A stretch of DNA of 64,000 nucleotides from the human T2T-CHM13v2.0 reference genome, Homo sapiens. The notes beneath the pieces were generated by a model, which was given only the letters and a program-made list of their open reading frames with translations, had not been told where the DNA came from and did no database searches. A program made the translations under genes and the position numbers. Positions within the stretch are counted from its first letter, which is position 1. Each line of letters begins with the position of its first letter. Of the stretch, positions 40,121-40,889 are shown piece after piece. The stretch is from NCBI GenBank assembly GCA_009914755.4, contig CP086569.2, positions 11,488,001 to 11,552,000 on the forward strand, read 5' to 3'.

Positions 40121-40140
40121 GGCCTTTATAAGAGTCGCTG
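40121..40140 (+). promoter_or_regulatory. TATAAG box ~135 bp upstream of the DUX4-like ATG (copy 1); corresponds to the position of the D4Z4 TACAA-type box
   Basis: The sequence ggcctttataagagtcgctggctggctgtccggg is conserved in all three copies (also ~48126-48135 and ~54763-54772). Confidence 0.5.
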
Positions 40141-40265
40141 GCTGGCTGTCCGGGCACGCCTCCTGGCTGCACCTGCCGCAGTGCACAGGACGGCTGTGGT
40201 GCACGGGAGCCCGCTGGCCTCTCTGCCCATGTCCGTCCGCGAAATTTCGGCCGGGGCTCCCCGCG

Positions 40266-40889
40266 ATGTCCCACCCGACACCTTCGGACAGCACCCTCCC
40301 TGCAGAAGCCCGGGGACGGGGACGGCGAAGGAGACTCGTTTGGACCCGGAGCCAAAGTGAGGCCCTGCGAGCCAGCTTTGAGCGGAACCCATACCCGGGC
40401 ATCGCCACCAGAAAACGGCTGGCCCAGGCCATCGGCATTCCGGAGCCCAGGTTGCAGATTTTGTTTCAGAATGAGAGGTCAAGCCACCTGAGGCAGCACG
40501 GGCGGGAATCTCGGTCCTGGCCCAGGAGATGCGGCCCGCAAGAAGGCAGGCGAAAGCAGACTGCGTCACCGGATCCCAGACGGCCCTTCTCCTCTGAGCC
40601 ATTGAGAAGGATCGCATTCCAGGCATCGCCGCCAGGGAAGAGCTGGCCAGAGAGACGGGTCTCCCAGAGTCCAGGATTCAGACCTGGTTTCAGAATCGAA
40701 GGGCCAGGCACCCGGGATATGCTGGCAGGGCGCCTGCATAGGCCGGCGGCCTGTGCAACGCGGCCCCCCACGGGTATCACCCTGCTCCCTCGTGGGTCGC
40801 CTTCGCCCACACCGGCACGTGGGGAACAGGGCTTCCCGCACCCCACGTGCCCTGTACGCCTGGGGCTCTCCCACAAGGGGCTTTCATGA
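40266..40889 (+). pseudogene. DUX4L: DUX4-like ORF remnant, copy 1: ATG plus intact homeodomain 1 (approx 40320-40500); -1 frameshift after ..QEGRRK, so homeodomain 2 is out of frame; 208 codons
   Basis: ATG at 40266 in context ccccgcgATGtcc. Relative to DUX4, GCGGACCGCCGTCACC has become gcagactgcgtcacc (1-bp loss). The downstream protein [24 protein letters not shown] is the shifted reading of the homeodomain 2 DNA. Confidence 0.85.

What the first reader, a model, noticed from the sequence alone, without database searches (positions are those of the whole stretch)
40121..40889. Copy 1 keeps a start codon, an intact first homeodomain and a TATAAG box: a potential single-homeodomain DUX4-like ORF of 208 codons
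Read in the DUX4 frame, ATG 40266 gives [78 protein letters not shown]. This is a complete 60-aa homeodomain with the WFQN recognition-helix core. A 1-bp deletion then sends the frame through the region where copies 2 and 3 have the TGA, into a 130-aa unrelated tail. About 135 bp upstream all three copies carry ccTTTATAAGag where the 4q35 D4Z4 promoter is described as having a variant TACAA box. A truncated homeodomain-only DUX protein could in principle act as a DNA-binding competitor lacking the C-terminal activation domain. Nothing in the sequence shows that this is expressed.
Basis: partly seen in the sequence, partly recalled or inferred. Interest (0 to 1): 0.55.

Follow-up and report, generated by a model that had tools for sequence, protein, structure and literature searches.

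The report
Decayed Y-chromosome DUX4-like pseudogene (DUXY1)
The 207-amino-acid reading frame is real, but it is the already published DUXY1 copy of the DUX4 repeat family on the human Y chromosome, and it looks like a neutrally decaying pseudogene that has lost key DNA-binding residues, not a working gene.

Summary
The ORF exists as described: ATG 40266 to TGA 40887-40889, 207 aa plus stop. A TATAAG box lies about 139 bp upstream. A 1-bp deletion in codon 100 bypasses an ancestral TGA.

Three details are wrong.
- The recognition helix reads ILFQNERSS, not IWFQNERSR. It carries W66L (homeodomain position 48) and R73S. R73A alone abolishes DUX4 activity.
- Copies 2 and 3 also keep the ATG, the TATAAG box and a first homeodomain, and theirs score better.
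- The out-of-frame tail is 107 aa, not 130.

The satellite block sizes (1999 and 5243 bp, third about 3.9 kb) and several gene details match the published human Yq11.1/q11.21 DUXY locus. Copy 1 is DUXY1. Its 1-bp deletion and novel C-terminus were described in 2005 and 2009.

TATAAG is the family norm: 65 of 73 paralogs have it. TACAAG is the 4q/10q exception.

The 207-aa length follows automatically from any 1-bp deletion between codons ~76 and 207. Paralogs reach it by frameshifts at several different sites.

Divergence is uniform across promoter, homeodomain and frameshifted parts (5.5-9.1%), and dN/dS is 0.83. No AATAAA or ATTAAA occurs for 13.7 kb downstream.

Verdict: a known pseudogene. 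A competitor function is unsupported, though expression could not be tested.

The parts
39471..42231 (+). D4Z4/LSau-type repeat unit, copy 1. This is DUXY1 of the human Yq11.1/q11.21 DUXY locus.
   Evidence: It is 86% identical to the units at 47474-50239 and 54121-56878. It is flanked by 68-bp beta-satellite blocks of 1999 and 5243 bp. These equal the sizes published for human DUXY blocks I and II (PMC2671837).
40127..40132 (+). TATAAG box, the HEFT1-type TATAA box of dispersed 3.3-kb repeats.
   Evidence: It is present in all three copies and in 65 of 73 scorable paralog loci. The four D4Z4-type loci have TACAAG. The review PMC12376486 states that the HEFT1 TATAA box corresponds to the variant TACAA of D4Z4.
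40229..40231 (+). Upstream out-of-frame ATG between the TATA box and the main ATG.
   Evidence: Copy 1 and copy 3 read CCCATGTCC. The paralog consensus reads CCCGTGTCC and D4Z4 reads CCCGCGTCC. The offset to 40266 is 37 nt, so it is out of frame (read directly from the sequence).
40266..40889 (+). The 207-aa ORF plus stop. Residues 1-100 are in the DUX4 frame and residues 101-207 are in the shifted frame.
40320..40499 (+). First homeodomain (residues 19-78), degraded. Substitutions are P28R, C37S, E50K, V63L, W66L, R73S and Q74H.
   Evidence: Reverting L66W restores 8.7 Pfam bits, and reverting L66W plus S73R restores 10.4 bits.
40461..40463 (+). Codon 66, TTG (Leu) in place of TGG (Trp, homeodomain position 48).
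40482..40484 (+). Codon 73, AGC (Ser) in place of CGC (Arg73, a base-contacting residue of the recognition helix).
   Evidence: For function see PMC5990521 and 10.1101/2023.01.21.524976.
40563..40565 (+). Site of the 1-bp deletion. The third base of ancestral codon 100 (GCC) is lost.
   Evidence: The paper reports this deletion for human DUXY1 and says it is shared with chimpanzee DUXY1 (PMC2671837).
40595..40597 (+). TGA (CGA to TGA in the second homeobox) present in all three copies. It is in frame in copies 2 and 3 and is bypassed in copy 1.
40739..40741 (+). A second stop (TAG) in the ancestral DUX4 frame of copy 1.
   Evidence: the DUX4-frame translation of copy 1 shows two stops.
40566..40886 (+). 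The 107-aa shifted-frame tail. It is rich in Pro, Arg and Gly and matches no domain.
   Evidence: Pfam finds nothing beyond the homeodomain at E up to 1. AlphaFold2 gives pLDDT below 50 for nearly all of residues 85-207 and no secondary structure there, on a shallow 15-sequence alignment. The substitution pattern shows no constraint in this frame.
37472..39470 (.). Beta-satellite block I, 1999 bp.
   Evidence: The size matches PMC2671837.
42231..47473 (.). Beta-satellite block II, 5243 bp. It lies downstream of the ORF and contains no poly-A signal.
   Evidence: The size matches PMC2671837.

Best explanation
The feature is DUXY1. It is the centromere-proximal member of the four-copy DUX4-like (LSau / 3.3-kb repeat) and beta-satellite array at the Yq11.1/Yq11.21 boundary of the human Y chromosome.

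It is a retro-derived DUX4-family copy that is decaying neutrally. All three copies in the window carry the same CGA-to-TGA nonsense change in the second homeobox, either inherited or recurrent, since CGA is a CpG hot-spot. Copy 1 also lost one base in codon 100.

In the ancestral sequence, the frame entered by any 1-bp deletion is free of stops from about codon 76 to a TGA at codon 208. The deletion therefore produced a 207-codon ORF automatically, with no selection needed. Since then the first homeodomain has picked up seven replacements, including W66L and R73S.

The TATAAG box and the ATG are simply the inherited family-typical promoter and start. With no poly-A signal, an out-of-frame upstream ATG, a weakened Kozak +4 base and CpG decay, stable production of a DNA-binding protein is unlikely.

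Shown here: the locus identity, the anatomy, the residue losses, the uniform divergence and the automatic ORF length. Inferred: the lack of expression and function.
For: Identity:
- Beta-satellite blocks of 1999 and 5243 bp and about 3881 bp equal the published human values of 1999, 5243 and 3884 bp.
- A 13.2-kb satellite lies on the proximal side, against a published figure of '14 kb'.
- Codon 21 differs in every copy: CGA, TCT and CAA.
- Only DUXY1 has the 1-bp deletion, all ORFs are at least 110 aa with HD1, and none has HD2 (PMC2671837).

Decay:
- Divergence of copy 1 from the paralog consensus is flat: upstream 7.8%, HD1 6.4%, linker 9.1%, HD2 region 7.8%, post-HD2 5.5%.
- The genuine D4Z4 gene shows 1.7-3.0% in coding parts against 5.4% upstream.
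- dN/dS over codons 1-100 is 0.83, from 15.5 nonsynonymous and 6.5 synonymous changes.
- In the tail, pN/pS is 0.61 in the shifted frame and 0.36 in the old DUX4 frame, so the new frame shows no sign of selection.
- The published human-chimpanzee dN/dS for DUXY1 is 2.14.

Automatic ORF length:
- The consensus frame reached after a 1-bp deletion is open from codon ~76 to the same TGA.
- Paralog ORFs of exactly 207 aa end in the same ...[19 protein letters not shown] but change frame at several different sites.

Loss of function:
- W66L and R73S.
- R73A abolishes DUX4 activity, and a single homeodomain is insufficient for DNA binding.
- Copy 1 has the lowest Pfam homeodomain score of the three copies.

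Expression signals:
- No AATAAA or ATTAAA for 13.7 kb downstream.
- An upstream out-of-frame ATG at 40229.
- CpG observed/expected is 0.63 against 0.74 in D4Z4, and 32% of substitutions are CpG transitions.

Not distinctive: TATAAG occurs in 65 of 73 paralogs.
Against: - The ORF with its frameshift is reported to be shared by human and chimpanzee DUXY1, with only one nonsynonymous difference in the shifted C-terminus. The authors read that as possible constraint (PMC2671837). I could not obtain the chimpanzee sequence to re-test it.
- dN/dS below 1 (0.5-0.8) could conceal weak early constraint.
- The homeodomain still passes Pfam's threshold and keeps F49, Q50, N51, R53 and the N-terminal RRRR arm.
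- The region is still borderline CpG-island-like.
- Dispersed 3.3-kb repeats are known to be transcribed (PMC12376486).
- No expression, methylation or proteomic data could be examined here.
Confidence: 0.86

Rival explanations
1. DUXY1 encodes an expressed, Y-specific single-homeodomain protein. It would occupy DUX4/paired-like TAAT sites or dimerise, acting as a competitor that lacks the activation domain. It is also close to the 'retained or neo-functionalised' suggestion of Schmidt et al. 2009.
For: - The ORF is intact over 207 codons and has a family-typical TATAAG promoter.
- The frameshift is reported to be shared with chimpanzee, with few C-terminal replacements.
[quoted passage not shown] The mechanism therefore exists in the family.
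- F49, Q50, N51, R53 and the RRRR arm are retained.
Against: - R73S and W66L hit a residue whose alanine mutant is inactive and the most conserved core tryptophan.
- A single DUX4 homeodomain is reported to be insufficient for productive DNA binding.
- HD1 is no more conserved than the promoter or the frameshifted DNA, and dN/dS is 0.83.
- The ORF length is an automatic by-product of the ancestral sequence.
- There is no poly-A signal for 13.7 kb, and there is an out-of-frame upstream ATG.
- The tail is predicted to be unstructured.
- No protein within 90% identity is present among 5.8 billion database clusters; the best hit is 80% identical.
Confidence: 0.04
2. The unit matters as DNA or non-coding RNA, not as a protein gene. 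The LSau/beta-satellite array would serve as a heterochromatin boundary or organiser at the Yq11.1 euchromatin/heterochromatin transition. Transcription from the TATAAG promoter would give unstable non-coding RNA, and the ORF would be irrelevant.
For: - The array lies exactly between a 13-kb (TCCAT)n satellite and beta satellite, at a published euchromatin/heterochromatin transition.
- The overall organisation is conserved between human and chimpanzee.
- The TATAAG box and the surrounding 40 bp are nearly invariant among paralogs.
Against: - No part of copy 1, promoter included, is less diverged than the rest.
- No Rfam family matches.
- Nothing here tests chromatin function.
- Conservation of the promoter among paralogs may reflect recent amplification or gene conversion rather than constraint.
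Confidence: 0.1

Closest known systems
DUXY1 of the human Yq11.1/Yq11.21 DUXY locus (Kirsch et al. 2005, not held; Schmidt et al. 2009, PMC2671837)
   Same: Everything testable agrees. The satellite block sizes match. The imperfect array alternates LSau and beta-satellite units. The ORF has HD1 only. [quoted passage not shown] Codon 21 differs in every copy.
   Different: Nothing detectable. I matched the published description and numbers, not the deposited sequence (AC134882), which these tools cannot fetch.
DUX4 in the 4q35/10q26 D4Z4 repeat
   Same: Same retrogene family. The first 100 aa are 85% identical. The promoter architecture and the ATG position are the same.
   Different: DUX4 has two homeodomains, a C-terminal activation domain and 424 aa. 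It has a TACAAG box in place of TATAAG. On permissive alleles it uses a poly-A signal distal to the array. It keeps W66 and R73, and its coding sequence is constrained (1.7% divergence against 6.4% here).
Dispersed 3.3-kb repeats with the HEFT1 promoter, and DUX1 (Ding et al. 1998, as summarised in PMC12376486)
   Same: A TATAA-type box where D4Z4 has TACAA. Heterochromatic location interspersed with satellites. Variable, often truncated ORFs.
   Different: DUX1 retains both homeodomains and binds DNA. This copy has one degraded homeodomain.
Single-homeodomain sDUX and the competitor DUXA (bioRxiv 10.1101/2023.01.21.524976)
   Same: They show how a DUX-type protein with one homeodomain, or without an activation domain, can occupy DUX4 sites.
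   Different: Those proteins keep the full set of DNA-contacting residues and come from constrained, expressed genes. This ORF has lost R73 and W48 and shows no constraint.

Membership tests
Homeodomain (Pfam PF00046) | Profile score above the curated threshold over about 57 positions | tested here: met
   The score is 45.9-47.7 bits against a cut-off of 22.9, covering profile positions 1-53 of 57. This is the lowest of the three copies and 17 bits below D4Z4 DUX4.
Homeodomain (Pfam PF00046) | Conserved helix-3 signature W48-F49-x-N51-x-R53 | tested here: not met
   The sequence is L48-F49-Q50-N51-E52-R53, so W48 is lost (TGG to TTG at 40461-40463). Reverting it restores 8.7 bits. That W48 is near-invariant rests on established knowledge.
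Homeodomain (Pfam PF00046) | Three-helix fold | tested here: inconclusive
   AlphaFold2 places helices at 28-40, 46-56 and 60-81, but pLDDT is only 55-67 on a shallow alignment. The model cannot judge the effect of W66L.
DUX4 / DUXC-clade double-homeobox protein | Two tandem homeodomains in one frame | tested here: not met
   The second homeobox is out of frame after the 1-bp deletion. In its own frame it carries TGA (40595-40597) and TAG (40739-40741).
DUX4 / DUXC-clade double-homeobox protein | DNA-contact residues of HD1: RRRR arm, Q68, N69, R73 | tested here: not met
   RRRR, Q68 and N69 are kept. R73 is replaced by Ser. R73A gives roughly 100% loss of transactivation (PMC5990521).
DUX4 / DUXC-clade double-homeobox protein | Conserved C-terminal activation domain | tested here: not met
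   The ORF ends at residue 207 in a shifted frame. The tail has no similarity to the DUX4 frame.
DUX4 / DUXC-clade double-homeobox protein | Usable polyadenylation signal downstream | tested here: not met
   There is no AATAAA or ATTAAA on the + strand from 40266 to 54010. Non-canonical signals were not assessed.
D4Z4 / LSau 3.3-kb repeat family (dispersed, HEFT1-type) | Nucleotide homology to D4Z4 across promoter and ORF, with a TATAA-type box | tested here: met
   The unit aligns base for base with 20 paralog loci, including D4Z4-type L040. TATAAG is shared with 65 of 73 paralogs.
D4Z4 / LSau 3.3-kb repeat family (dispersed, HEFT1-type) | Interspersion with 68-bp beta satellite in heterochromatin | tested here: met
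   TRF finds 68-bp arrays on both sides of each unit.
Human DUXY locus, member DUXY1 | Published block sizes, gene order and ORF features | tested here: met
   Blocks of 1999, 5243 and about 3881 bp are found here, against published 1999, 5243 and 3884 bp. The 1-bp deletion occurs only in the proximal copy. Codon 21 differs in each copy. All ORFs are at least 110 aa and lack HD2.
Human DUXY locus, member DUXY1 | Sequence identity to AC134882 / chrY | not testable with these tools
   No human reference sequence is reachable with these tools. The best database protein is only 80% identical.
Expressed protein-coding gene | Transcripts, translation, and purifying selection | tested here: inconclusive
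   Selection was tested: dN/dS is 0.83 and divergence is flat across segments, which gives no support. Transcription, methylation and translation cannot be tested here.

The most novel reading that the evidence does not exclude
DUXY1 would be a hominine-conserved, male-specific single-homeodomain protein whose frameshifted Pro/Arg-rich tail has been kept since before the human-chimpanzee split. This follows Schmidt et al., who report only one C-terminal replacement. The altered recognition helix (L48, S55) would give it a new DNA or protein-binding role in the male germ line.
Probability: 0.03. Interest if true: 0.55.

Novelty: already known. Interest (0 to 1): 0.1.

Why it matters
It matters little. 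The case is a useful calibration point, because GC-rich D4Z4-type repeats produce long ORFs automatically. An intact ATG, a TATA box and a homeodomain hit are therefore not evidence of a gene.

If DUXY1 were expressed after all, it would be a Y-specific DUX-family protein of possible relevance to germ-line or early-embryo DUX4 biology. The sequence evidence here points the other way.

Tried and rejected
- Rfam scan of the whole window: no match.
- Searching the 5.8-billion-cluster protein database for the same protein: the best hit is 80% identical, so no annotated or assembled identical ORF exists there. The many 207-aa hits first looked like a conserved family. On inspection they change frame at different sites and share only the terminal stretch. 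I therefore rejected the 'conserved 207-aa protein' reading in favour of 'automatic ORF length', which the consensus frame analysis confirmed.
- Using the 80 metagenome-contig paralogs to estimate how often W66 is lost: rejected. The retrieval patterns ([15 protein letters not shown]) pre-select copies that keep W66. ORF-length counts from that set are likewise biased towards intact copies.
- Fetching Kirsch et al. 2005 (PMC546517) for primary DUXY1 data: not held.
- Looking for a paper that states the W48 requirement explicitly: none found in two attempts. That point rests on general knowledge plus the Pfam score shift.
- AlphaFold2 as a test of the W66L effect: uninformative, because confidence was low on a shallow alignment.
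- The chimpanzee DUXY1 sequence needed to re-test the claimed C-terminal constraint was not obtainable.
- The literature search for DUXY and DUX4L16-19 returned no expression or functional study. The DUX4L hits were listed by title and abstract only and were not opened.

Full report
**What is in the window**

Tandem-repeat and self-similarity analysis gives this layout:
- 1-24200: AT-rich unique or interspersed sequence, with L1 ORF fragments at 2740-6024 on the minus strand.
- 24205-37441: a 13.2-kb (TCCAT)n satellite.
- 37472-39470: 68-bp beta satellite, 1999 bp.
- 39471-42231: GC-rich D4Z4/LSau-type unit, copy 1.
- 42231-47473: beta satellite, 5243 bp.
- 47474-50239: copy 2.
- About 50240-54120: beta satellite, about 3881 bp.
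- 54121-56878: copy 3.
- 56878 to the window end: beta satellite.

Copies 2 and 3 are each 86% identical to copy 1.

**Checking the observation**

The ORF is real.
- Pfam calls a homeodomain at 45.9 bits against a cut-off of 22.9.
- Residues 1-101 align to the DUX4 chains of solved structures at E about 1e-57.
- The CCTTTATAAGAG box is present in all three copies.
- The 1-bp deletion lies in codon 100, between 40564 and 40565.
- No AATAAA or ATTAAA occurs on the + strand between the ATG and 54010.

Three statements fail.
- The helix-3 core is not WFQN. Codon 66 is TTG (Leu) where copies 2 and 3, DUX4 and every other paralog sequence in the alignment have TGG (Trp, homeodomain position 48). Codon 73 is AGC (Ser) instead of Arg.
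- Copy 1 is not special in keeping a start codon and a first homeodomain. Copies 2 and 3 keep the same ATG and TATAAG box and encode 110-aa ORFs with the first homeodomain, ending at the TGA in the second homeobox. Pfam scores for the first 100 aa are 47.7 bits (copy 1), 57.6 (copy 2), 54.1 (copy 3) and 64.9 (genuine D4Z4 DUX4, locus L040), so copy 1 is the most degraded. Reverting L66W alone restores 8.7 bits, and reverting L66W plus S73R restores 10.4.
- The out-of-frame tail is 107 aa (residues 101-207), not 130. Residues 79-100 are still the DUX4 linker.

**Identity of the locus**

A literature search led to Schmidt et al. 2009 (PMC2671837). That paper describes the human DUXY locus at the Yq11.1/Yq11.21 transition. 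It is an imperfect tandem array of LSau units and 68-bp beta satellite holding four DUX4-like genes.

The following agree with the window:
- The published human beta-satellite blocks are 1999, 5243, 3884, 7709 and 125 bp. Mine are 1999, 5243 and about 3881 bp, and the fourth is cut by the window end.
- The paper reports 14 kb of satellite on the centromeric side.
- All copies are predicted to encode ORFs of at least 110 aa that include the first homeodomain but never the second.
- Codon 21 differs in every human copy. Here it is CGA, TCT and CAA.

The chimpanzee block sizes (2007, 2905 and 145021 bp) do not fit, so the window is human. Cosmid contents give the order DUXY1-DUXY3-DUXY2-DUXY4. 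Copy 1 is therefore DUXY1, and copies 2 and 3 are probably DUXY3 and DUXY2.

According to the paper, the deletion was first reported by Kirsch et al. 2005, which I could not read.

**The TATAAG box**

I retrieved 80 paralogous loci from human-associated metagenome contigs, where they are human contamination. Of 73 with a scorable upstream region, 65 have TATAAG. Four have TACAAG, three have single-base variants (two TAAAAG, one CATAAG), and one did not match the search pattern. Of the four TACAAG loci, the two with an intact ORF (L040, L041) encode the 424-aa D4Z4 DUX4.

TATAAG is therefore the family norm and the 4q/10q TACAA is the derived exception. The review PMC12376486 says the same: the HEFT1 TATAA box of dispersed 3.3-kb repeats corresponds to the variant TACAA of D4Z4. 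The box says nothing specific about this copy.

**Why the ORF is 207 codons long**

The protein search returned many ORFs of exactly 207 aa with 50-80% identity, including a macaque 'DUX1-like' prediction. Their sequences share the terminal ...[23 protein letters not shown]. They leave the DUX4 frame at different places: before the second homeodomain, inside it, just after it, or about 30 residues further on.

Translating the paralog consensus explains this. The frame reached after a 1-bp deletion has no stop from about codon 76 to the TGA that ends the 207-aa ORF. Any single-base deletion in that roughly 390-bp stretch yields a 207-aa ORF by default. The length reflects the ancestral GC-rich sequence and does not require selection.

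The same 2 kb carries 21 ORFs of at least 60 aa on both strands, including one of 297 aa antisense to the DUX frame.

**Is there constraint?**

| Segment | Copy 1 vs paralog consensus | D4Z4 DUX4 (L040) vs consensus |
|---|---|---|
| Upstream 270 bp | 7.8% | 5.4% |
| N-terminus plus HD1 | 6.4% | 1.7% |
| Linker | 9.1% | 3.0% |
| HD2 region | 7.8% | 1.7% |
| Post-HD2 | 5.5% | 2.7% |

Copy 1 is flat across segments, whereas the genuine gene is clearly less diverged in its coding parts.
- For codons 1-100, copy 1 has 15.5 nonsynonymous and 6.5 synonymous changes, so dN/dS is 0.83. Copies 2 and 3 give about 0.5.
- In the tail, pN/pS is 0.61 in the shifted frame, 0.36 in the abandoned DUX4 frame and 1.74 in the third frame. 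The numbers are small, but nothing favours the new frame.
- Schmidt et al. report a human-chimpanzee dN/dS of 2.14 for DUXY1.
- About a third of copy 1's substitutions are CpG transitions. CpG observed/expected is 0.63 against 0.74 in D4Z4. This fits long-term germ-line methylation but does not prove it.

All three copies carry the CGA-to-TGA stop in the second homeobox. This may be inherited from a common ancestor, in which case the double-homeodomain gene was already dead before they diverged. It may also be recurrent, since CGA is a CpG hot-spot.

**Would the product bind DNA?**

Dong et al. 2018 (PMC5990521) report three relevant results. A single homeodomain is not sufficient for productive DNA binding. 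Both homeodomains are required. Single mutations N69A or R73A in HD1 abolish transactivation.

Arg73 makes the base contact whose position sets TAAT versus TGAT preference (bioRxiv 10.1101/2023.01.21.524976). Copy 1 has Ser73. It also has Leu in place of the position-48 tryptophan. That this tryptophan is a near-invariant core residue of homeodomains is established knowledge, and here it is supported only by the 8.7-bit Pfam shift.

The shifted tail has no Pfam match and AlphaFold2 predicts it to be unstructured, at low confidence.

**Expression signals**

These are inferred from sequence only.
- There is no canonical poly-A signal for 13.7 kb downstream.
- A CpG transition created an out-of-frame upstream ATG at 40229, between the TATA box and the main ATG.
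- The +4 base of the Kozak context changed from G to T (G4T).

[quoted passage not shown] Some transcription therefore cannot be excluded, and I could not test it.

**Conclusion**

The feature is DUXY1, a known and neutrally decaying DUX4-family pseudogene copy in the Y-chromosomal LSau/beta-satellite array.
- The ORF is a by-product of a 1-bp deletion in a sequence whose alternative frame happens to be open.
- The promoter box and the ATG are family-typical.
- The homeodomain is the most damaged of the three copies.

The competitor-protein idea is mechanistically legitimate within the DUX family, as sDUX and DUXA show, but nothing here supports it for this copy. One published hint remains untested: few replacements in the shifted C-terminus between human and chimpanzee. 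I give the functional-protein reading about 3-4%.

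Noticed in passing
window 40326-40328, 48329-48331, 54966-54968: Codon 21 of the DUX frame differs in each copy: CGA, TCT and CAA. Copy 2 differs from the paralog consensus CGA at all three bases, which is an unusual whole-codon replacement. Schmidt et al. note that chimpanzee DUXY2-4 all have TGA here and called the human states surprising. CAA is one CpG transition from CGA, but TCT is unexplained.
   Followed up: partly
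loci L003, L004, L006, L007, L012, L016, L038, L046, L051-L053, L057, L059, L075, L078 and others: Nineteen of the 80 paralog contigs carry a TATAAG-type promoter and an uninterrupted 422-aa double-homeodomain ORF. These are distinct from the D4Z4-type copies with TACAAG and a 424-aa ORF. So apparently intact DUX4-like ORFs exist outside the 4q/10q type. The sample is biased towards intact copies, and their chromosomal origin is unknown.
   Followed up: no
window 24205-37441: A 13.2-kb (TCCAT)n pentamer satellite with extreme strand asymmetry (GC skew about -0.7), interrupted about every 230-250 bp by diverged segments. It matches the '14 kb of satellite sequences' proximal to the DUXY locus.
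   Followed up: partly
window 2740-6024, minus strand: ORFs of 153, 293 and 186 aa that resemble LINE-1 ORF2 (endonuclease and reverse-transcriptase parts) and ORF1, judged by eye. This looks like a degraded L1 element in the proximal unique sequence.
   Followed up: no
window 40466-41359, minus strand: A 297-aa ORF antisense to the DUX frame, plus many other overlapping ORFs of 60-170 aa on both strands of the GC-rich unit. These are compositional artefacts and show how little an open frame means here.
   Followed up: partly
window 54011 and 54331: The only two AATAAA motifs on the + strand between 39001 and 57500 flank the junction between beta-satellite block III and copy 3 at 54120/54121. 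They lie upstream of copy 3's ORF and far downstream of copies 1 and 2.
   Followed up: no
window 40229-40231 and 54869-54871 (approx.): Copies 1 and 3 both read CCCATGTCC, against the consensus CCCGTGTCC. This creates an upstream out-of-frame ATG in the presumptive 5' leader. It may be recurrent CpG decay or shared ancestry.
   Followed up: partly
loci L008, L036, L048: Three unrelated paralog contigs also give 110-aa ORFs, the same length as copies 2 and 3. They were assumed, not checked, to end at the same CGA-to-TGA stop in the second homeobox. That stop is either a marker of a subfamily or a recurrent CpG hot-spot mutation.
   Followed up: no
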